A stretch of 12,662 bases of DNA. Origin: a virus. Of the stretch, positions 4,365-12,662 are shown piece after piece. The notes beneath the pieces were generated by a model, which searched no databases, was not told the origin of the DNA, and saw nothing but the letters and a program-made list of their open reading frames with translations. Position 1 is the stretch's first letter; each line of letters starts with the position of its first letter. The stretch lies in the UHGV virus genome UHGV-0336296; one strand, written 5' to 3'. The position numbers were made by a program, and so were the translations under genes.

Positions 4365-5150
4365 ATGCATCGTATAGACACGAAAACCGCGCAGAAGGAT
4401 AAGTTCGGCGCGGGTAAGAACGGTTTTACCCGTGGTAACCCCCAGACCGGCACGCCTGCCACCGATCTGGATGATGACTACTTTGACATGTTGCAGGAGG
4501 AGCTTTGCAGCGTTGTGGAGGCATCCGGTGCCAGCCTGGAGAAGGGGCGGCATGACCAGCTGCTTACCGCGCTTCGTGCGCTGCTGTTAAGCCGCAAGAA
4601 TCCGTTTGGCGATATCAAATCGGATGGCACGGTGAAAACAGCTCTCGAAAACCTTGGTTTGGGAGAAGGTTCGGCATTACCCGTTGGCGTGCCTGTTCCG
4701 TGGCCTTCCGCCACTCCGCCAACAGGCTGGCTGAAATGCAACGGGGCGGCTTTTTCTGCTGAAGAATACCCGGAACTGGCAAAGGTTTACCCGACAAATA
4801 AATTGCCTGATTTACGCGGTGAGTTTATTCGTGGCTGGGATGATGGAAGAGGGATTGATACTAACCGTAGCTTGCTTTCGTCACAGGGAGATACCATTCG
4901 GAATATAACAGGATTTATAAATGAAGTTAAAGGCACCATTGATACAGCAACTTTCAGGTTACAGACTGGTACTGGTGCTTTTGCCTTAGCATCTCAAGCT
5001 ACGCGAAATATCTATAATAACCTAGGCACATATGAAACAAAAAATACCCCTTACACAGGATTCAGTTTTGATGCATCCAGGGTTGTACCAACAGCATCAG
5101 AGAATCGCCCTCGAAACATTGCATTTAACTATATCGTGAGAGCAGCATAA
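4365..5150 (+). CDS. Side tail fibre protein: constant N-terminal part (to about 4653) fused to an invertible C-terminal receptor-binding cassette
   Basis: 261 aa. GGAG RBS upstream. Contains a tail-collar-like motif ([21 protein letters not shown]). The left crossover site lies inside the coding sequence at 4642-4667. GC drops sharply after about 4860. Confidence 0.75.
4642..4667. repeat. Left invertase crossover site (hix/gix/pix-like, 26 bp)
   Basis: ctctcgaaaacc-tt-ggtttgggagaa: AAACC-NN-GGTTT core with dyad symmetry, as in Hin/Gin/Cin/Pin recombination sites. Confidence 0.7.
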
Positions 5151-5752
5151 TGGATAAAGCAATATTAAATAGTGAGCTTATTGCTACAAAGTCGGGGGAT
5201 ATTACCGTTTATAACTATGATAGTGAGACGCAGGAATATATTTCAGCATCAACTGAATATCTTGCCATTGGTGTCGGTATTCCTGCATATTCCTGTTTAG
5301 ATGCCCCTGGCACACATAAGGCGGGTTATGCTATCTGTCGTTCTGCAAATTTTAACTCATGGGAATATGTGCCAGACCATCGCGGTGAAATCGTCTATAG
5401 CACCAAAACGGGAGAGTCAAAAGAAATCACAGCTCCGGGTGATTACCCTGATAATACAACCACTATCGCCCCGTTAACGCCATACGATAAATGGGATGGT
5501 GAGAAATGGGTGACGGATACCGAAGCACAGCATAGCGCCGCAGTAGATGCAGCAGAAGCACAGCGCCAGTCACTGATTGATACTGCAATGGCTTCAATCA
5601 GTCTGATTCAGCTGAAATTGCAGGCCGGACGTAAACTGACGCAGGCAGAAACAACCAGCCTTAACGCTGTGCTGGATTACATTGACGCGGTGACGGCAAC
5701 TGATACCAGCACCGCGCCTGATGTCATCTGGCCTGAACTGCCGGAGGCGTAG
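5150..5752 (+). CDS. Tail fibre assembly protein (Tfa)
   Basis: 200 aa. Start overlaps the fibre stop (TAATG). C-terminus LDYIDAVTATDTSTAPDVIWPELP is the conserved Tfa C-terminal signature, shared with the opposite-strand copy. Confidence 0.75.
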   Translation: MDKAILNSELIATKSGDITVYNYDSETQEYISASTEYLAIGVGIPAYSCLDAPGTHKAGYAICRSANFNSWEYVPDHRGEIVYSTKTGESKEITAPGDYPDNTTTIAPLTPYDKWDGEKWVTDTEAQHSAAVDAAEAQRQSLIDTAMASISLIQLKLQAGRKLTQAETTSLNAVLDYIDAVTATDTSTAPDVIWPELPEA

Positions 5753-6167
5753 GCCATTCAATATCTGGCGCACCGGAAGTATCGACCAGCTCCAGTGCGT
5801 CCAGATAATCCAGCCATAAATTATATTGTTCCAGCTCGTCACCTTTCAGACGACCAATAGCAGCTTTGCCAGGCCACTGATGGGTATTGATGTAGGTATT
5901 GACTTCTGAAACCAAAGATATTTTTTTCATTTCAGCCGCCAGCACCTCATCCTCTTTTGAAGGCGGCGGGGAATTAATCCATATTGGCCGTCCTGAACTG
6001 TCAGCGCCAATTTCTTTCCCTTCTGGATGCAGCCCAAGAAATTGCTCATATGTTTCTCTGGTAATTTCAATAACATCATCAGGAAGCGTTCCCGCATCCT
6101 CATATTCTGGAAACAATTCTTGCAGATAAAAACTTTTACTTCCGGGTGAAAAGAATACTGAGTTCAT
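5724..6167 (-). CDS. Alternative tail fibre assembly protein (Tfa'), silent cassette in this orientation
   Basis: 147 aa on the - strand, converging on tfa and overlapping it by 29 bp. C-terminus WLDYLDALELVDTSGAPDIEWPTPP matches the Tfa signature. Confidence 0.7.
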   Translation of the reverse strand: MNSVFFSPGSKSFYLQELFPEYEDAGTLPDDVIEITRETYEQFLGLHPEGKEIGADSSGRPIWINSPPPSKEDEVLAAEMKKISLVSEVNTYINTHQWPGKAAIGRLKGDELEQYNLWLDYLDALELVDTSGAPDIEWPTPPAVQAR

Positions 6168-6169
6168 TC

Positions 6170-6624
6170 TTACCGTCCAATGATTAACGCTGAGACGCTG
6201 GTATCTGAAGGAAAGGCTGCATTCAGTGGTTTGTCGACTTTGAACACAATCGTATTATTCCCCCTGACAGCGGCAAAAGAACAAACCGCCGTCGCGTATG
6301 AACCTGTAATATTACTGGATACACCACCATAAGCTGTTGTTGATACCAGAGGGATAACGCCCAGCACCTTATTAGGAAATACAAAGGGCAATGTGGCTGT
6401 GGCAATATAAGACTTATTAGAACCTGTAATGGCATAAGCATTATCAGTCATTCCATTCATCGCCACTGGACCGCTTATACTTACAGTAACCATCTGAATG
6501 ATTAGCCCGTCAGGTTGACGAATCACAAAATTTCCATTGCCACCAGTAACCGTCCAGAAAGACATATCAGGGATTTGGTTTTCCCCGTTGCCCACATTCC
6601 GTTTTGCCGCTTCTCCCAAACCAA
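6170..6624 (-). CDS. Alternative tail fibre C-terminal cassette (Stf'), no start of its own; expressed only after inversion fuses it to the constant N-terminus
   Basis: - strand frame is open from the right crossover site to a stop at 6170-6172, 2 nt upstream of the tfa' start. The sequence at the crossover encodes GLGE in both the expressed and the silent cassette. Confidence 0.65.
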
Positions 6625-6636
6625 CGTTTATGAAAA
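6611..6636. repeat. Right invertase crossover site (26 bp), inverted relative to the left site
   Basis: ttctcccaaacc-aa-cgtttatgaaaa. The inner half is the exact reverse complement of the inner half of the left site. Central AA is complementary to the left site's TT. Lies about 55 bp upstream of the invertase start. Confidence 0.7.
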
Positions 6637-6690
6637 TACAGAAATAACGAGCAAATGGCATCATTCCTGCTTTTGTCAGGGAGATCTACC

Positions 6691-7242
6691 ATGCTTATTG
6701 GCTATGTACGTGTGTCAACAAATGACCAGAACACAGATCTACAACGTAATGCGCTGAACTGTGCAGGATGTGAGCTGATTTTTGAAGACAAGATAAGCGG
6801 TACAAAGTCCGACAGACCAGGACTGAAAAAGCTGCTCAGGACATTATCGGCAGGTGACACGCTGGTGGTCTGGAAACTGGATCGACTCGGTCGCAGCATG
6901 CGGCATCTTGTCGTTTTGGTGGAGGAGCTTCGGGAAAAGGGTATTAACTTTCGCAGCCTGACCGACAGCATAGATACGTCTTCACCAATGGGACGCTTTT
7001 TCTTCCATGTCATGGGCGCACTTGCCGAAATGGAAAGGGAGCTGATAGTCGAACGTACCAGGGCGGGATTGGCTGCGGCTCGTGAAGAAGGGCGAATAGG
7101 TGGGCGTCGATCAAAGCTAACTGATGAACAGTGGGCGCAGGCAGGAAGGTTGGTTGCAGCAGGTGAATCACGACAGCGTGTGGCATTAATTTACGATGTT
7201 GGGATATCGACGCTATATAAAAAATTTCCGGCAACCAGGTAA
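6691..7242 (+). CDS. pin: Site-specific DNA invertase, serine recombinase of the Pin/Hin/Gin/Cin family
   Basis: 184 aa from the ATG at 6691. N-terminus MLIGYVRVSTNDQ carries the catalytic serine motif. C-terminal helix-turn-helix (GISTLYKKF). Adjacent to the invertible fibre segment. Confidence 0.9.
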   Translation: MLIGYVRVSTNDQNTDLQRNALNCAGCELIFEDKISGTKSDRPGLKKLLRTLSAGDTLVVWKLDRLGRSMRHLVVLVEELREKGINFRSLTDSIDTSSPMGRFFFHVMGALAEMERELIVERTRAGLAAAREEGRIGGRRSKLTDEQWAQAGRLVAAGESRQRVALIYDVGISTLYKKFPATR

Positions 7243-7310: not shown

Positions 7311-7330
7311 TACTGTATATAATATCAGTA
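7311..7330 (+). promoter_or_regulatory. LexA operator (SOS box) overlapping the umuDC promoter -10 region
   Basis: TACTG-TATATAATAT-CAGTA is a perfect CTG-N10-CAG palindrome, 20 bp upstream of the umuD start. A TATAAT hexamer sits at 7318-7323 inside the box. Confidence 0.8.
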
Positions 7331-7349
7331 TTAATTGACGGTGATTATG

Positions 7350-7769
7350 ATGCAGTTTTTCACTCCCTCCGGGTTGCGTGCAGTGCAGCCGCTTCCACTC
7401 TATGGCGATCTTGTACCCTGTGGTTTCCCAAGCCCTGCTCAGGACTACGTTGAACAGCGTATCGATCTTAACGAGCTACTGATACAACACCCCAGCGCCA
7501 CGTACTTCGTTAAGGCATCTGGTGACTCGATGATTGATGCCGGGATCGGCGAAGGCGATTTACTGGTAGTGGACAGTTCACGCAAGGCAGAGCACGGCGA
7601 TATCGTTATTGCTGCGGTGGACGGGGAATTTACCGTTAAGCGCCTACAGTTATGGCCAACTGTCCAGCTTAACCCTGAAAACCGCGCCTGGTCGCCTATC
7701 ATCATCGGGAGCGAAGAAACGCTCGATGTTTTTGGTGTGGTGACGTTCATCGTGAAATCGACGGGTTGA
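7350..7769 (+). CDS. umuD: Translesion DNA polymerase V accessory subunit UmuD (LexA-like self-cleaving S24 peptidase)
   Basis: 139 aa from the ATG at 7350. Cys-Gly cleavage site (LVPCGFPSP), Ser nucleophile motif (ASGDSMID), and Lys in FTVKRL. Sits directly behind the SOS box. Confidence 0.85.
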
Positions 7770-7771
7770 TC

Positions 7772-9040
7772 ATGTACGCGTTGTGTGATGTGAACTCGTT
7801 CTATGCCTCCTGTGAAACTGTATTTCGCCCGGATCTCAAAGGTAGGCCGGTTGTGGTGCTTTCCAACAATGACGGTTGTGTTATTGCCCGCAGCACAGAG
7901 GCAAAGAAACTGGGTATCAAAATGGGTGAGCCGTACTTCAGGCAGAAGGACTTTTTCCGGCGCCATGGGGTGGTGTGCTTCAGCAGCAACTATGAGCTGT
8001 ATGCGGATATGTCTAACCGGGTGATGACCACGCTGGAAGAAATGTCGCCGCGCTGTGAAATTTACTCGATAGACGAGGCATTTTGTGACCTCACTGGTGT
8101 ACGTAACTGTCGTGATCTGACTGATTTTGGCCGTGAAATCCGTGCTACTGTTCTGCAGCGAACGCATCTGACAGTGGGTGTTGGCATTGCCCAGACCAAG
8201 ACGCTGGCCAAGCTGGCCAACCACGCGGCCAAACAATGGCAGCGGCAGACGGGCGGGGTGGTAGACCTGTCCAGTGTCGATCGCCAGCGCAAACTGATGG
8301 CCGCGCTGCCGGTTGATGAAGTCAGGGGCATCGGTCGGCGTATTTCGAAAAAACTGGAGGCGATGGGGATCAAGACCGTACTGCAACTCGCTGATACGGA
8401 CATCCGTTTTATCCGTAAACATTTTAATGTCGTGCTGGAGCGAACGGTGCGTGAGTTACGCGGAGAACCCTGCCTGGCACTGGAAGAATTCGCGCCAGTG
8501 AAACAGGAAATTATCTGTTCCCGCTCTTTTAGCGGTCGTATCACGGAGTATGAAGAGATGCGCCAGGCGATCTGCAGCTATGCCTCGCGGGCGGCAGAGA
8601 AACTGCGTGGCGAGCACCAGTATTGCCGTTTTATCTCGGCGTTTGTGAAGACCAGCCCGTTCGCACTGAACGAGCCCTATTATGGCAATAATGCCTCCGT
8701 GAAGCTTCTGACGCCTACGCAGGACAGTCGGGATATCATCAGTGCAGCCATCCGCTGTCTGGACGCCATATGGCAAGACGGATATCGGTATCAGAAAGCC
8801 GGGGTGATGTTGGGTGATTTCTTCAGTCAGGGCGTGGCCCAGCTCAACTTGTTCGATGATAACGCGCCGCGCCCGGGCAGTGAGAAACTGATGGAAGTGC
8901 TGGATCACCTCAATGCCAAAGGCGGGAGGGGGACGCTGTATTTTGCAGGACAGGGTATCCAGCAGCAGTGGCAGATGAAACGGGAAATGCTTTCTCCACG
9001 TTACACCACCCGATTCTCTGATCTACCCGTTGTCAGGTGA
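7772..9040 (+). CDS. umuC: Translesion DNA polymerase V catalytic subunit UmuC (Y-family polymerase)
   Basis: 422 aa from the ATG at 7772. N-terminus [13 protein letters not shown] and [11 protein letters not shown] are Y-family catalytic motifs. Starts 2 nt after the umuD stop. Confidence 0.9.
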
Positions 9041-9117
9041 TTTTCCGGTGACAGATTCTTCGGAAAACGGTGGATGAGTTTATTAGAAACGATAAATCAA
9101 ATGTTCTTATTTTTGAT

Positions 9118-9156
9118 TACTAAGTCTCAGTTATACAATTCGGCTGAGACTTAGTA
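9118..9156. repeat. 13 bp perfect inverted repeat (stem-loop, 13 nt spacer) between the convergent umuC and KAP NTPase genes
   Basis: tactaagtctcag (9118-9130) and ctgagacttagta (9144-9156) are exact reverse complements. Located at the GC-content break. No clear U-tract on either side. Confidence 0.55.
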
Positions 9157-9163
9157 TGCCAAT

Positions 9164-10912
9164 TTATAGGCAAGAAATTGCGTGTCTTACTGTATTGTTT
9201 AAATCATATATCGCGCCATATTTAAAACTTTCTTGCTTACCTATGAAATAAATGTCAAGTTTTTGATTGAGGTATATAAGGCGCTGCTTTTCATTTGTGG
9301 CAAACTGAGATATGTTACTAATTCTATAATTACTTCTTAAAAAAGCGTTGAATTGCTCTATATCTTTAATGCTCCATTCTTTTAAAATGCACTTGGTCAA
9401 AAATGGTGCGCCAAGTACTTCTAGCGTTTTATAGTTTCCCATGGGATCTAATTTGAGTAATAAGTTAACATCAAATAAAGCCCAACCATCAGTTTCAATA
9501 ATTTCCTTAATTGCCTTTAAGTTTTTTCTCTTTTCAATATTATTATGACGGCCTGATAATATTGAAAATATAAGTTTCCCATCATCAAAGCCACTAGTCC
9601 AACTACTGATTGGATTGTTGTTATGAAATTCAAAGTAAGTAATAATGTCCTCGTCACTAAATTCGAGTGATTTAGAACTCATGAACTGCAATGTTAGTAA
9701 TGATGATTTTGGAAGATATTTATGATAAGTCAAATATTCATAGTTCTGAACCGCCCTAAGCCATTGGTGCAAATCACATGGTATTGTTCTAGAAATTAAA
9801 CCAATAATCGTGGGGAAAAATTCTTTTTCATCTGTCTCCTGTAGTTCTGGTCGAGTTGAAACTGCAATATCAATTGTACTTAAAGGTGTTGGCACATAAA
9901 AAACATCGTCCAATATATCATAAAGAGAAACATGACCACTGTAGTAATTTTTAAGGTGAATATTAATTTTATAATTGTGTAATGTAGACAAAAGTCTCGG
10001 TTCATGTGGATTTTCATCGCTGCTGGAATTTTGGGGTGGGATATGCTGGATGCTGTCAATGATCAGTTCGTCCATGGATTTGTTATGGATAAATAACAAG
10101 ATAAAATATGACAAAATTGAGCTTAGTATGGTTTTAGAGGCGATTTTCCACTCTAGTTCAGGGTGGTTTTCTGCGTGTAAATATAATGGAAGTGCAGTAT
10201 TTAAACACCTCATTAAAATTCTTATGTTAACTATGTTATGGTATGATATTATTTCTTCGAAAATCATTTTGTCTTCAGTGGGGAAGTACTGTAGTTTTTC
10301 TTCAATTATTCTCATATCTAATATGTCGCGAGGGTTTGGGTTGTAATGAAGTGAATCAGAAATAATTTTTTCTTTATGTTCTAATGACAGGTGGGATTCG
10401 GCAGATGTATTAGATATAACAATAAAATCCAAACTAGAGATTTTTGAGGTTGAATATAACGAATGACAATAAGTTAGTATTTCATTGGCCAGTGAGGGAG
10501 TGCTTAATCGCTCAATGTCATCTAATATAAATATGCCACTGAGTTTGGAGAGTATGTTCTCTCTTACACTTGAACCAATGGAACTGAACACACCATTAAG
10601 CACATTGGCACTAGCGGGAGAACCACTGCTTACACTACCCAAACCAGAAATAGTATCTAACCCAGACTTAAGAGTGTCTATATCTTGAAGATAGTAGCAG
10701 TCAATAATCTTTGCTTTGAAATCTGCAAGAGACTTAACGCCTAGTAATGAAATATAATAAAACACATTAAGATCATAAAAACGAGGAAATACATTTTTAA
10801 TAAAAAAAGTTTTACCTGTTCCCCATTTTCCATCAATAAAAATAAGTCCATCTCTTTCGGATTGTAGAAGATGAACTATTTTTACAATCAAATTGCTATT
10901 AGAGTTTTCCAT
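9164..10912 (-). CDS. KAP-family P-loop NTPase (PifA-like); candidate abortive infection / anti-phage protein
   Basis: 582 aa. Walker A GKWGTGKT (the GxWGxGK[ST] form typical of KAP NTPases) near the N-terminus. Walker B-like IFILDDIERL (hhhhDD-DR). Very AT-rich single-gene insert between GC-rich neighbours. Confidence 0.7.
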   Translation of the reverse strand: MENSNSNLIVKIVHLLQSERDGLIFIDGKWGTGKTFFIKNVFPRFYDLNVFYYISLLGVKSLADFKAKIIDCYYLQDIDTLKSGLDTISGLGSVSSGSPASANVLNGVFSSIGSSVRENILSKLSGIFILDDIERLSTPSLANEILTYCHSLYSTSKISSLDFIVISNTSAESHLSLEHKEKIISDSLHYNPNPRDILDMRIIEEKLQYFPTEDKMIFEEIISYHNIVNIRILMRCLNTALPLYLHAENHPELEWKIASKTILSSILSYFILLFIHNKSMDELIIDSIQHIPPQNSSSDENPHEPRLLSTLHNYKINIHLKNYYSGHVSLYDILDDVFYVPTPLSTIDIAVSTRPELQETDEKEFFPTIIGLISRTIPCDLHQWLRAVQNYEYLTYHKYLPKSSLLTLQFMSSKSLEFSDEDIITYFEFHNNNPISSWTSGFDDGKLIFSILSGRHNNIEKRKNLKAIKEIIETDGWALFDVNLLLKLDPMGNYKTLEVLGAPFLTKCILKEWSIKDIEQFNAFLRSNYRISNISQFATNEKQRLIYLNQKLDIYFIGKQESFKYGAIYDLNNTVRHAISCL

Positions 10913-10989
10913 TATAATTGTTATCCTAATTTAAAGAGGTGTAAATAAAGCATGAAATAGTATAATGCTAATTTGAGGTAAAAACATTA

Positions 10990-11580
10990 TTATTCAATTG
11001 AAACAATAAGATATTCACCTTGATTTTTCGCATTACCCATCGCTCGCGTAACTGCATGCCAGATAAACTTGTCAGCTTGCACGGCACCGTAGTCGGTAAT
11101 CGCTTCTGCTTCCTTGCCTCGGCGTCTTGGCGCATCCCATTCCCGGGCTGCCTCCGGTGACAATACAAGTGGCTGTCGGTCGTGTATATCAACCAAGCCT
11201 TCATCGGCCGCAGACGTCACTATTAAAAAACCTTCGGCCTCGTCACTACGTTCGAAGGGGCGCTGCCGATTGCCGCCATGAATATTGGCTACCCATCAGT
11301 TCGGTGAATGAAGTAGGGTTGTTTTTTTGCTATCTTCGGTCTTGTCGAGTAGGGCACCGAAGTTACCTTCAACGCCCCCTCTAAGAACCGTGCGTGAGAG
11401 TTTCCAGCTCACACGGCTCAAGCCTTATCAAACACCACTGTGAAATGATGCGGCAGGTGCAGTCAGACGCGTGGTTCGGGATCGGATATAATCTGTCCAA
11501 TCCGTGTCATATGGATTAAGTGCAGATGCGACGAGTCTGTGACGGACAATTTTGACGCTCTGAGCGTGAACCAGCCTCAG
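10990..11580 (-). pseudogene. Decayed yedK-like SRAP (SOS response-associated peptidase, DUF159) gene
   Basis: C-terminal frame reads LVDIHDRQPLVLSPEAAREW...NAKNQGE, matching the SRAP C-terminal region. Upstream sequence continues the match (PIFMAAIGS, PFERSDEAEGFLIV) only across a 1-nt frameshift and an in-frame TAG. No intact ORF longer than 78 aa. N-terminal boundary is uncertain. Confidence 0.55.
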
Positions 11581-11631
11581 TATTGTAACTTTCCCCGTAT
11601 CAGTGTCCCGATAAAGACCTGACACCCCATT

Positions 11632-12465
11632 TTACTGCTGCCACCAAGCATATAGATCTAGACCTTTGGTAATTACACCTAAGAAAATCCCTAAAACTAT
11701 TAATCCAGTCACTAATGGGTGTTCTTTGAGCCTCATCGTTAACCAATATGGATGCCAGCTTCTTGGCCAAAACCATTTATTGTTAGTTTTGAGAGTACGA
11801 TCATGAATCCGCTCAGCAATATTACAGAGTATGTCGACCTTTCGTAATGTAGACATTTCTAGCTCTCTATACTTACCTTTGACATATGCCTCGGCTTCCT
11901 CAGCGCCGGCTAAGACATCTTTATCAGCGATACCATTTTTTTCAACAAGAGCTAACATTCTACCTGCACGGCCACTTTTGGCGGTATGCCCAATATAGCT
12001 TCGTCCATATATAGAAACGGCAGCTCTCGCTAAATCGAGTTTTCTGTCATCAGTAAGTATAAAGGGCTCGCCACCTAGGACTGAAAATCTATGCTGTAAG
12101 GCCTGAAATCCGTAATTGTTATCTCGCATGTTCCAATGCAGAAATGTGCATTGTGCGTATCTTTTCAGGAATGTAAAGTAGTTATCTAATAGATGATGCT
12201 CAAGGATATCGAGATTTTTTTCATCTGAAACATCAAGACCTAATAATTCTGCGGATCTATTAAGAGCCCAATGATCTGTTTGCCCACTGCCTAAATTTCT
12301 GACAGCAATAGAGGTGATCCTTGTGGATTTACCGCCCACAGCATCATAAAAAGATTCACATGAATAATGGACAACGTAGCATTGATGCGCATTTGCAAAA
12401 CATTTTTCGATAAAACCAATGTACTCGCTGCGATCTCTAATCTGTTGTTTGATGGAAGATGACAT
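11632..12465 (-). CDS. Hypothetical protein with a C-terminal transmembrane anchor; function unknown
   Basis: 277 aa. ATG at 12465 preceded by a GAGGT RBS. C-terminal hydrophobic helix LVTGLIVLGIFLGVITKGL. AT-rich compared with the phage and umuDC parts. No family recognised. Confidence 0.6.
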   Translation of the reverse strand: MSSSIKQQIRDRSEYIGFIEKCFANAHQCYVVHYSCESFYDAVGGKSTRITSIAVRNLGSGQTDHWALNRSAELLGLDVSDEKNLDILEHHLLDNYFTFLKRYAQCTFLHWNMRDNNYGFQALQHRFSVLGGEPFILTDDRKLDLARAAVSIYGRSYIGHTAKSGRAGRMLALVEKNGIADKDVLAGAEEAEAYVKGKYRELEMSTLRKVDILCNIAERIHDRTLKTNNKWFWPRSWHPYWLTMRLKEHPLVTGLIVLGIFLGVITKGLDLYAWWQQ

Positions 12466-12637: not shown

Positions 12638-12662
12638 TGGTGGAGCTGGCGGGAGTTGAACC
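12638..12662 (-). ncRNA. ssrA: 3' terminal fragment of tmRNA (ssrA) tRNA-like domain, or a duplicated att copy of it; gene body would lie beyond the window end
   Basis: - strand reads GGTTCAACTCCCGCC-AGCTCC-A-CCA: T-loop TTCAACT, T-stem CCCGC, acceptor 3' strand CAGCTCC, discriminator A, CCA. This matches the tmRNA 3' end as recalled. Only 25 nt are visible. Confidence 0.55.

What the first reader, a model, noticed from the sequence alone, without database searches (positions are those of the whole stretch)
9041..10989. Low-GC single-gene island encoding a PifA-like KAP NTPase: candidate abortive-infection system
A roughly 1.95 kb very AT-rich segment sits between GC-rich umuC and a decayed yedK-like gene. 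It carries one 582 aa ORF with the KAP-type Walker A (GKWGTGKT) and Walker B (ILDDIER). The KAP family is named partly after PifA, the F-plasmid protein that aborts T7 infection, so an anti-phage role is a reasonable hypothesis. The C-terminal 350 aa or so have no features I recognise and could be a new effector or sensor domain. Placement beside a prophage tail module and a tmRNA-linked site fits a defence hotspot.
Basis: partly seen in the sequence, partly recalled or inferred. Interest (0 to 1): 0.8.

Follow-up and report, generated by a model that had tools for sequence, protein, structure and literature searches.

The report
Swappable prophage NTPase gene, likely anti-phage
A 1.95 kb AT-rich insert between a prophage's umuC and yedK-like genes carries one intact ATPase gene that sits in an exchangeable cargo slot and is most likely an untested anti-phage protein, related to a catalogued candidate family rather than to PifA itself.

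Summary
Window 9041-10989 is a sharp low-GC block (0.32 against 0.51-0.54 in the flanks). It holds one intact 582 aa ORF (9164-10912, minus strand) with GKWGTGKT and ILDDIER motifs.

The protein has two domains. The N-terminal 250 aa form a KAP-type, AAA+-like P-loop NTPase. The Pfam KAP hit passes the cut-off but aligns only 33 residues. Residues 251-582 form an all-alpha domain with no close solved structure.

It is not a PifA orthologue. It is a full-length, diverged relative of PADLOC candidate PDC-S49, which is untested, and of phage family phrog_4740.

The main new finding is that the umuC|SRAP junction is a variable cargo slot in temperate enterobacterial phages. The slot can be empty, can hold unrelated small AT-rich genes, or can hold deeply divergent alleles of this family (100, 58, 56 and 36% identity). 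Loci whose umuC genes are 96% identical carry alleles only 35% identical, so alleles are swapped. All alleles are intact, with dN/dS of 0.10-0.36.

The family also occurs alone at other prophage and island ends. It is rare, found in 74 of 5426 complete E. coli genomes.

A defence role is the best reading but is unproven. An abortive-infection mode has no support. This is a new member of a known kind, of moderate interest.

The parts
9041..10989 (.). AT-rich cargo segment of 1949 bp that fills the slot between the convergent stops of umuC and the SRAP remnant
   Evidence: GC is 0.32 against 0.54 and 0.51 in the flanks. DNA homology to other cassettes stops at 9025 and resumes at 11024. The slot is empty in E. 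coli 100181, UTAK-5 and others.
9164..10912 (-). Intact 582 aa ORF encoding a KAP-type, PDC-S49-like P-loop NTPase
   Evidence: PGAP names it 'P-loop NTPase fold protein' WP_053285694.1. dN/dS among alleles is 0.10-0.36.
10163..10912 (-). N-terminal NTPase domain plus helical lid (residues 1-250)
10808..10831 (-). Walker A motif GKWGTGKT (residues 28-35)
10508..10528 (-). Walker B motif ILDDIER (residues 129-135)
   Evidence: It aligns with PifA VMDDLDR.
10589..10681 (-). Gly/Ser-rich loop (residues 78-108) between Walker A and Walker B. It is conserved among closer alleles but is predicted to be disordered.
   Evidence: pLDDT is below 50. The consensus SGSPASANVIN appears in A1. It is not hydrophobic enough for a membrane helix, with a Kyte-Doolittle maximum of 0.65.
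9167..10162 (-). C-terminal all-alpha domain (residues 251-582), a putative sensor or scaffold
9118..9156 (.). Perfect 13-bp inverted repeat with a 13-nt loop, between the KAP stop and the umuC stop. It may be a shared terminator.
   Evidence: repeat I10. It does not meet the intrinsic-terminator consensus.
10913..10989 (-). 77-bp spacer upstream of the ORF (GC 0.22) with an AGGA ribosome-binding site at 10923-10926. The promoter is not resolved.
   Evidence: Equivalent SRAP-KAP spacers are 64-81 bp long in other cassettes.
7311..7330 (+). LexA box upstream of umuD. It is the only good SOS box in the cassette.
   Evidence: Sequence TACTGTATATAATATCAGTA has one mismatch.
7335..9040 (+). umuD-umuC operon (phage-type Pol V), the conserved left flank of the slot
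   Evidence: Pfam assignments. The UmuC protein is 84-90% identical to UmuC of sequenced temperate phages.
10990..11327 (-). Decayed SRAP/YedK gene, the conserved right flank. It retains residues 112-222 only and is frameshifted.
   Evidence: tblastn gives 69-83% identity to the intact SRAP of L006 in two frames. Pfam SRAP hit. PGAP pseudogene note.

Best explanation
The segment is exchangeable cargo in a slot between two conserved, convergent genes. These genes, umuC and an SRAP/yedK-like gene, belong to an accessory cassette (umuD, umuC, SRAP, often with dinI and an invertase) at the attachment-site end of temperate enterobacterial phages. The copy in this window lies beside ssrA.

The cargo is one autonomous gene for a soluble two-domain protein. 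The first domain is an N-terminal KAP-type, AAA+-like P-loop NTPase. The second is a faster-evolving all-alpha C-terminal domain. The protein is a diverged, full-length member of the family that PADLOC lists as the untested candidate PDC-S49.

The most likely function is prophage-borne immunity against other phages. In this model the C-terminal helical domain recognises a phage-derived cue. The NTPase acts as the nucleotide-dependent switch, probably through oligomerisation as in ORC/Cdc6-like and STAND ATPases. Infection is then blocked.

What is shown: the insertion, the empty site and the alternative cargos; the swapping of alleles between near-identical flanks; purifying selection; the domain architecture; and homology to PDC-S49.

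What is inferred: the anti-phage role, the division of labour between sensor and switch, and oligomerisation.

What is unknown: the effector step. No nuclease, protease, TIR, pore or membrane element was found, so the outcome (abortive or not) cannot be stated.
For: - PADLOC: PDC-S49 at E 7.8e-14 for this protein. Of 27 family members, 26 hit PDC-S49, the best at 1.3e-28.
- Full-length homology by transitivity. hhalign of A1 against P0131 gives probability 99.9% over residues 6-582. P0131 matches PDC-S49 profile positions 27-617 of 624 at E 9e-32.
- KAP signatures. Pfam scores 28.9 bits against a cut-off of 20. Relatives align over KAP profile positions 5-202 of 293. The Walker B context matches PifA.
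- Slot states seen: empty and overlapping in about 10 complete E. coli genomes; hyp206+DUF2188; hyp236; ImmA/IrrE+XRE in Klebsiella phage ST846-OXA48phi9.2; small ORFs plus csp genes in Escherichia phage PHB10. All cargos have GC of 0.31-0.41.
- Family alleles of 100, 58, 56 and 36% identity occupy the same slot.
- Phylogenetic incongruence. L034 against L023: umuC 96.4% identical, cargo 34.9%. L040 against L045: 96.0% and 34.4%. The empty L019 against the occupied L006: umuC 93.4%.
- The gene works without the cassette. It lies beside thrS at the ends of P22-like and lambdoid prophages in 71 of 5426 E. coli genomes. It follows the ssrA-site integrase of a P4-like island in Yersinia. It sits in an integrase/GPA element in Vibrio. 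It is solitary in Cronobacter.
- All 13 alleles are intact, with dN/dS of 0.10-0.36. The C-terminal domain is more divergent than the N-terminal domain.
- Precedent: KAP NTPases fused to uncharacterised C-terminal regions protect E. faecalis from phage, and this requires Walker B (PMC12632615).
- A neighbouring accessory pair in the empty-slot prophage hits PADLOC PDC-M66A/B.
Against: - There is no experimental evidence for this family or for PDC-S49. The 145 PDC systems are explicitly untested.
- The PADLOC and PHROG alignments of this protein cover only the N-terminal half.
- The other cargos of the slot are not recognisable defence genes. Their PADLOC hits are only weak. The slot is therefore shown to be variable, not shown to be a defence hotspot.
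- No homologue was found in 50,697 deposited phage genomes at E of 1e-5 or better.
- Recurrent linkage to SRAP and umuDC could reflect a functional tie to DNA-damage tolerance instead.
Confidence: 0.55

Rival explanations
1. The NTPase is a working partner of the SOS and translesion cassette (SRAP, UmuD'2C, DinI). It could be a DNA-binding AAA+-like loader or regulator that acts at stalled forks or abasic sites, co-transcribed with SRAP.
For: - The order SRAP -> NTPase -> <- umuC <- umuD recurs for alleles of 100, 58, 56 and 36% identity. It appears in 9 of 16 close IMG/VR loci and in several genomes.
- The NTPase gene lies 64-81 bp downstream of SRAP on the same strand.
- The best structural matches are DNA-bound initiator and loader ATPases such as ORC/Cdc6, RFC and TnsC.
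Against: - The slot is empty, or holds unrelated genes, in cassettes with 93-96% identical flanks.
- The gene persists intact here although SRAP has decayed.
- The family occurs without SRAP or umuDC in at least five other settings, including 71 E. coli genomes.
- Its composition is foreign to the cassette, 0.32 against 0.50-0.55 GC.
- There is no LexA box upstream of SRAP or the NTPase in four cassettes.
Confidence: 0.12
2. It is a prophage 'moron' with some other benefit, or with a selfish role. Examples would be an addiction or toxin-like module that stabilises the island, a regulator of prophage induction, or a host-fitness factor unrelated to phage.
For: - It sits at the att-proximal end of (pro)phages, where morons of many kinds accumulate.
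- The cassette is retained while the adjacent prophage decays or differs.
- There is no identifiable effector.
- The other cargos of the slot have unknown, non-defence-looking content, such as csp genes and DUF2188.
Against: - The closest catalogued relatives were picked because they are embedded in BREX, DISARM or type I RM loci.
- Deep allelic diversity with swapping at one slot fits selection for diversity, as expected for immunity.
- No antitoxin-like partner accompanies the gene, which is single in all nine kinds of setting examined.
Confidence: 0.25
3. It is a decaying or non-functional remnant of horizontally acquired DNA, silenced by its AT-richness.
For: - The neighbourhood is decayed. 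It has an SRAP pseudogene, a group II intron fragment and, in one strain, an IS3 element.
- Some cluster members are truncated fragments.
Against: - The 582-codon frame is intact in 32% GC DNA.
- All 13 alleles are intact.
- dN/dS is 0.10-0.36 in both domains.
- The catalytic motifs are invariant across 27 members down to 19% identity.
Confidence: 0.05

Closest known systems
PADLOC PDC-S49 (single-gene 'phage defence candidate' from guilt-by-embedding in BREX, DISARM or type I RM loci)
   Same: The length (about 580-625 aa) and two-domain architecture are the same. Of 27 family members, 26 hit the PDC-S49 HMMs. Intermediates link the two over the full length.
   Different: This Enterobacterales subfamily is a diverged branch. 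The window protein aligns only over profile positions 27-322 of 624, at 49 bits. PDC-S49 itself has no experimental validation and no known mechanism. It is not mentioned by name in any searchable paper.
PifA of plasmid F (founder of the KAP family; excludes phage T7)
   Same: Both have a P-loop NTPase with the GxWGxGKT Walker A and the DD[IL][DE]RL..PS Walker B. The motif order is colinear through the lid (hhalign E 1.5e-4 over 115 columns). Both are carried on a mobile element.
   Different: PifA is 741 aa and scores 148.5 bits over the whole Pfam KAP model, against 28.9 bits over 33 residues here. The C-terminal regions are unrelated. PADLOC puts PifA with PifA, QatA and PDC-S20, not PDC-S49. 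PifA has the pifC repressor upstream, and nothing comparable is present here.
KAP P-loop NTPase fusion defence proteins such as EF_KAP (RADS study, PMC12632615) and Tmn
   Same: These are single-gene systems: a KAP-type NTPase followed by about 320 aa with no known domain. In EF_KAP, Walker B is needed for protection. They were found near serine recombinases, and a Pin-type serine invertase lies about 1.9 kb from this gene.
   Different: EF_KAP and Tmn have transmembrane helices, and this protein has none. The invertase in this window is the tail-fibre switch of the prophage, so the proximity may be incidental.
Cargo hotspots of P2-like phages and P4-like satellites
   Same: Conserved flanking genes bracket AT-rich, exchangeable cargo near the phage end. 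Empty and alternative states occur among close relatives. The comparison with the P2 and P4 hotspots rests on my own knowledge of the literature.
   Different: The flanks here are umuC and SRAP, which are themselves accessory SOS-type genes carried by Mu-like, P2-like and lambdoid prophages. I found no description of this slot in the searchable literature. Most of its cargos are not recognisable defence genes.
STAND and ORC/Cdc6-type AAA+ ATPases, including antiviral Avs proteins
   Different: There is no effector domain, no TPR or LRR-type repeat signature, and no winged helix. Sequence similarity is limited to the P-loop.

Membership tests
KAP family P-loop NTPase (Pfam PF07693) | Score at or above the Pfam gathering threshold | tested here: met
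   The score is 28.9 bits against a cut-off of 20, at E 8.7e-7. The alignment covers only residues 10-42, the Walker A region.
KAP family P-loop NTPase (Pfam PF07693) | Match across the NTPase core (Walker A through Walker B and beyond), not only the P-loop | tested here: inconclusive
   The window protein matches 33 of 293 profile positions. Relatives P0062, P0070, P0131 and P0157 align over positions 5-202 at 21-34 bits. hhalign of A1 against PifA gives probability 52% and E 1.5e-4 from Walker B to the lid. The AAA_22 hit over residues 20-159 falls below its cut-off.
KAP family P-loop NTPase (Pfam PF07693) | KAP-style motifs: GxWGxGKT Walker A and hhhhDD[LI][DE]R Walker B | tested here: met
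   GKWGTGKT and FILDDIERLSTPS here correspond to GAWGSGKT and VVMDDLDRLE-PS in PifA. Both motifs are invariant in 27 members. That these motifs are characteristic of the family rests on my own knowledge of Aravind et al. 2004, which I could not retrieve.
KAP family P-loop NTPase (Pfam PF07693) | Transmembrane helices inserted in the NTPase domain (a feature of eukaryotic and some bacterial members, not of all) | tested here: not met
   The insert at residues 78-108 is Gly/Ser-rich and predicted disordered, with a Kyte-Doolittle maximum of 0.65. The only hydrophobic helix (residues 257-275, Kyte-Doolittle 1.89) lies in the helical domain of a confident globular model.
PifA (the Pif system of plasmid F) | Full-length similarity to PifA, or a hit to the PADLOC PifA model | tested here: not met
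   There is no PADLOC PifA hit, whereas PifA itself scores 963 bits. BLASTP finds only the Walker motifs, at E 0.015 and 0.37.
PifA (the Pif system of plasmid F) | Companion regulator pifC upstream | tested here: not met
   The upstream gene is an SRAP pseudogene, and no PifC-like gene is present. The F plasmid layout is shown.
PifA (the Pif system of plasmid F) | Exclusion of T7-like phage by abortive infection | not testable with these tools
   This needs phage challenge.
PADLOC PDC-S49 | Significant hit to the PDC-S49 HMMs | tested here: met
   PDLC05031 at E 7.8e-14, PDLC05029 at 1.1e-10 and PDLC05030 at 3.8e-10. Of 27 family members, 26 hit.
PADLOC PDC-S49 | Full-length coverage of the model, including the C-terminal domain | tested here: inconclusive
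   The direct hit covers profile positions 27-322 of 624 only. Full-length homology is shown through intermediates. P0131 matches the model at positions 27-617 of 624. A1 against P0131 gives probability 99.9% over residues 6-582. PADLOC's own coverage and score thresholds were not available.
PADLOC PDC-S49 | Embedding in, or association with, known defence systems (the basis of the candidate call) | tested here: not met
   None of the nine kinds of setting examined for the close family is inside a BREX, DISARM or RM locus. They are prophage and island ends, or solitary sites. One C. freundii locus has another KAP_NTPase gene about 7 kb away.
Anti-phage defence system (in general) | Protection against phage that depends on the catalytic motifs | not testable with these tools
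   No experiment exists for this family or for PDC-S49.

The most novel reading that the evidence does not exclude
The umuC|SRAP junction of temperate enterobacterial phages would be a previously undescribed cargo slot. Selection there would maintain ancient, swappable alleles of a soluble KAP/PDC-S49-like NTPase, and that NTPase would be an immune sensor with a new, non-enzymatic way of stopping phage. It might also be coupled to the SOS and translesion cassette it lives in, for example by sensing phage interference with RecA, SSB or damaged-DNA intermediates.
Probability: 0.12. Interest if true: 0.7.

Novelty: new member of a known kind. Interest (0 to 1): 0.42.

Why it matters
If the defence role holds, it would give the first functional handle on the PDC-S49 family. 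A profile search finds about 240 cluster representatives at E of 1e-30 or better, and thousands of more distant ones. It would also be a soluble KAP-type immunity protein with no recognisable effector, whose mechanism would have to be new.

Independently of function, the work defines a concrete cargo slot (umuC|SRAP) that is easy to search. The slot has empty, alternative and multi-allelic states in enterobacterial prophages. It can be mined for further accessory genes and used to study allele swapping at prophage ends.

For genome annotation, it shows that 'P-loop NTPase fold protein' at this position is a mobile accessory gene. It is neither part of the SOS regulon nor a PifA orthologue.

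Tried and rejected
- PifA orthology was rejected.
- A membrane-inserted KAP architecture was rejected. No segment in the insert reaches a membrane-helix hydropathy score.
- SOS regulation of the gene: the only LexA box is upstream of umuD. None lies upstream of SRAP or the NTPase in four cassettes.
- Transposon-like or site-specific insertion: there are no terminal inverted repeats, no flanking direct repeats and no target-site duplication. Only a 13-bp hairpin lies between the convergent stops. Junction alignments of empty against filled sites show no clean breakpoint.
- NCBIfam gives nothing above threshold.
- tblastn against 50,697 phage records finds nothing.
- Literature: there is no searchable mention of PDC-S49, of the WP accessions of this family, or of an umuC/SRAP prophage slot. 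The DefensePredictor preprint does not mention KAP. The Aravind et al. 2004 KAP paper could not be retrieved.
- Defence content of the other slot cargos gave only weak PADLOC hits (PDC-S16-like, CapH/CapP-like). I therefore did not claim a 'defence hotspot'.
- The idea that the gene simply evolves faster than its flanks was rejected in favour of allele exchange. Loci with 96% identical UmuC carry cargos 35% identical.
- Promoter and terminator consensus scans were no better than shuffled controls.
Full report
**Observation**

The window holds an open reading frame at 9164-10912 on the minus strand. It is 582 aa long and starts with ATG. Its translation contains GKWGTGKT at residues 28-35 and ILDDIER at residues 129-135.

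GC falls from 0.52-0.57 to 0.30-0.35 between about 9000 and 11000, then recovers to 0.51. By gene, the values are 0.327 for this ORF, 0.542 for umuC and 0.507 for the SRAP remnant. The 77-bp spacer upstream of the ORF has GC of 0.22.

One is the umuC stop at 9040. The other belongs to the yedK/SRAP remnant at 10990-10992.

- UmuD and UmuC are intact.
- A 76-codon ORF matches the C-terminal end of the SRAP domain.
- A Mu-like baseplate, a tail-fibre module and a Pin-type invertase lie upstream.
- The last 25 nt of tmRNA lie at 12638-12662.

The segment 8500-11600 occurs in three complete E. coli genomes. There PGAP calls the gene 'P-loop NTPase fold protein' and the SRAP gene a frameshifted, N-terminally truncated pseudogene. 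In those genomes ssrA and smpB follow directly.

**The protein**

Pfam KAP_NTPase passes its cut-off (28.9 bits against 20), but the alignment covers only residues 10-42. NCBIfam has nothing above threshold. PADLOC gives PDC-S49 at E 7.8e-14, covering residues 24-314 and profile positions 27-322 of 624. PHROGs gives phrog_4740, of unknown function, at E 8e-17 and again over the N-terminal half.

A word-indexed search found 45 clusters. All are about 580 aa long and nearly all come from Enterobacterales. An alignment of 27 of them has these invariant residues: G28, W30, G31, G33, K34, T35, D131, D132, E134, R135, E181, K182, N229, R231 and W477.

A profile search of 1.84 billion cluster representatives found 240 proteins at E of 1e-30 or better. 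Most are 550-615 aa long and match along their whole length. Ten of these intermediates all hit PDC-S49, and several do so over profile positions 27-617 of 624. Four of them align with the Pfam KAP model over positions 5-202 of 293. hhalign of the family alignment against one intermediate, P0131, gives probability 99.9% over residues 6-582. Of the 27 family members, 26 hit PDC-S49.

The protein is therefore a diverged, full-length relative of PDC-S49. Its C-terminal region is that family's C-terminal domain, not a new one.

**Structure**

The AlphaFold2 model has mean pLDDT 82. It shows a five-stranded P-loop core with a helical lid (residues 1-250) followed by an all-alpha region. A conserved Gly/Ser-rich loop at residues 78-108 is the only long low-confidence stretch.

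A PDB sequence-profile search is empty. Viral predicted structures give only generic AAA+ similarity. There is no transmembrane insert.

**Comparison with PifA**

PifA from plasmid F scores 148.5 bits over the whole KAP model. In PADLOC it hits PifA, QatA and PDC-S20, but not PDC-S49.

Against the window protein, BLASTP finds only Walker A and the Walker B neighbourhood (FILDDIERLSTPS against VVMDDLDRLE-PS). hhalign gives 52% probability from Walker B to the lid.

'KAP-type' is a fair description of the NTPase. 'PifA-like' is not a fair description of the protein.

**The locus**

Homologues at very different distances sit in the same place:
- C. freundii, 37% identity.
- C. amalonaticus, 58% identity.
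- A further allele at 36% identity.

All three lie as SRAP -> NTPase -> <- umuC <- umuD, at the ends of P2-like, lambdoid or invertase-bearing prophages.

Between the window and the C. freundii locus, UmuC is 86% identical, UmuD 75% and the SRAP remnant 69-83%. The NTPase is only 37% identical. DNA homology stops at 9025 and resumes at 11024.

An empty site exists. In E. coli 100181 and UTAK-5, the same kind of prophage end has umuC and an intact SRAP gene overlapping by 8 bp. About ten complete E. coli genomes show this state.

Other fillings also exist:
- A 206-aa ORF plus DUF2188, in at least eleven genomes.
- A 236-aa ORF.
- ImmA/IrrE plus XRE, in Klebsiella phage ST846-OXA48phi9.2.
- Several small ORFs and two csp genes in Escherichia phage PHB10, where SRAP lies next to the integrase.

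All of these cargos are AT-rich, 0.31-0.41 GC against 0.47-0.56 in the flanks.

In IMG/VR, 9 of 16 close family members sit in this slot. Nearly all 16 lie within about 3 kb of a viral-contig end.

**Allele swapping**

Pairwise comparison shows that the cargo and its flank have different histories:

| Pair | UmuC identity | NTPase identity |
|---|---|---|
| L034 / L023 | 96.4% (dN 0.023) | 34.9% (dN 0.72) |
| L040 / L045 | 96.0% | 34.4% |
| L017 / L040 | 94.8% | 49.8% |
| L019 (empty) / L006 (occupied) | 93.4% | not applicable |

A uniformly faster clock cannot produce this pattern. Alleles must be gained, lost and exchanged between conserved flanks.

The alleles are nevertheless all intact. 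Nei-Gojobori dN/dS is 0.10-0.36 in both domains. The C-terminal domain is the more divergent. For the 36% alleles it is 28% identical, against 47% for the N-terminal domain.

**Autonomy**

The family also occurs without SRAP or umuDC:
- A 58% allele lies beside thrS at the ends of P22-like, lambdoid or degraded prophages, in 71 of 5426 complete E. coli genomes.
- It lies directly after the ssrA-site integrase of a P4-like island in Yersinia.
- It lies in an integrase/GPA element in Vibrio.
- It is solitary in Cronobacter.
- It lies near another KAP NTPase gene in C. freundii.

In this window it remains intact although SRAP has decayed. The only LexA box is upstream of umuD. These facts argue against an obligatory role in the SOS cassette. 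They do not exclude a looser functional tie.

**Interpretation**

Several properties fit a mobile-element-borne immunity gene:
- A rare, AT-rich, single-gene cargo.
- An exchangeable slot at prophage ends.
- Deep allelic lineages that are swapped between near-identical backgrounds.
- Purifying selection together with a faster-evolving non-catalytic domain.
- Homology to a family nominated because it is embedded in BREX, DISARM or RM loci.

There is also experimental precedent. KAP NTPases fused to uncharacterised C-terminal regions protect E. faecalis from phage, this requires Walker B, and the protection was reported as not abortive (PMC12632615).

Against this, PDC-S49 is explicitly untested. 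No effector domain is visible. The other cargos of the slot are not recognisable defence genes.

My estimates are:
- Anti-phage function: about 0.55.
- Another moron or selfish function: 0.25.
- A working partnership with the SOS cassette: 0.12.
- Non-function: 0.05.

The mechanism proposed is a helical sensor, an NTPase switch and oligomerisation. This is inference from the architecture. The killing or blocking step is unknown.

**Novelty and score**

The protein is a new, diverged member of a catalogued candidate family within the known class of KAP-type single-gene defence candidates. To my knowledge the umuC|SRAP cargo slot and its allele swapping have not been described, and a literature search found nothing on it. 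This is the more useful by-product of the work. I score the interest as moderate, 0.42.

Noticed in passing
window 11344-11421 (minus strand): This stretch matches Rfam Intron_gpII (domains V/VI of a group II intron) at 53.6 bits against a gathering score of 40, E 2e-8. It directly abuts the 5'-truncated SRAP pseudogene. An intron insertion followed by decay may therefore be what destroyed SRAP. No reverse-transcriptase ORF is present. The 313-bp stretch 11328-11640 occurs only in the same three complete E. coli genomes.
   Followed up: partly
window 11632-12465 (minus strand): A 277 aa ORF lies between the intron remnant and ssrA. It has no Pfam or PADLOC hit but a strong match to phage family phrog_8766 (unknown function, E 2e-54). 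It travels with the cassette in SZQ1, in L010 and in IMG/VR loci L031 and L032.
   Followed up: partly
window 5150-7242: This looks like a typical invertible tail-fibre segment. It has opposed tail-fibre-assembly genes (5150-5752 plus strand, 5724-6167 minus strand), an alternative fibre C-terminus (6170-6664 minus strand) and a Pin/Cin-type serine invertase (6655-7242). The RADS study uses serine recombinases as markers for nearby defence genes, so the proximity to the NTPase gene may or may not be meaningful.
   Followed up: no
L019 3876-5431 (E. coli 100181) and L020 (UTAK-5): In the prophages with an empty umuC|SRAP slot, a DUF3037 protein and a HipA-family kinase sit between pinE and dinI. 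They hit the PADLOC candidate pair PDC-M66B and PDC-M66A (E 3e-15 and 3e-12). This is a second accessory position in the same prophage end.
   Followed up: partly
L001 (SZQ1), L010 (GCA_030000635.1) and the window: The block umuDC, NTPase, SRAP remnant and hyp277 beside ssrA is constant. The prophage DNA to its left differs: a full Mu-like tail module in the window, a deleted tail region next to an integrase and IS3 in SZQ1, and terminase, HNH and holin fragments in L010. In strain Res13-Sevr-PER07-33, an IS3-family element interrupts the region.
   Followed up: partly
L015 9021-11678 and about 15659 onward (C. freundii): The 70% allele lies next to an 885 aa CHP02642-family protein with no PADLOC hit. 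It is about 7 kb from a second, 746 aa KAP_NTPase gene. This may be a defence island.
   Followed up: no
window 9118-9156: A perfect 13-bp inverted repeat with a 13-nt loop lies between the convergent stops of umuC and the NTPase gene. An analogous hairpin (AAGGTC...GACCTT) occupies the same position in the C. freundii cassette, although the sequences are unrelated.
   Followed up: partly
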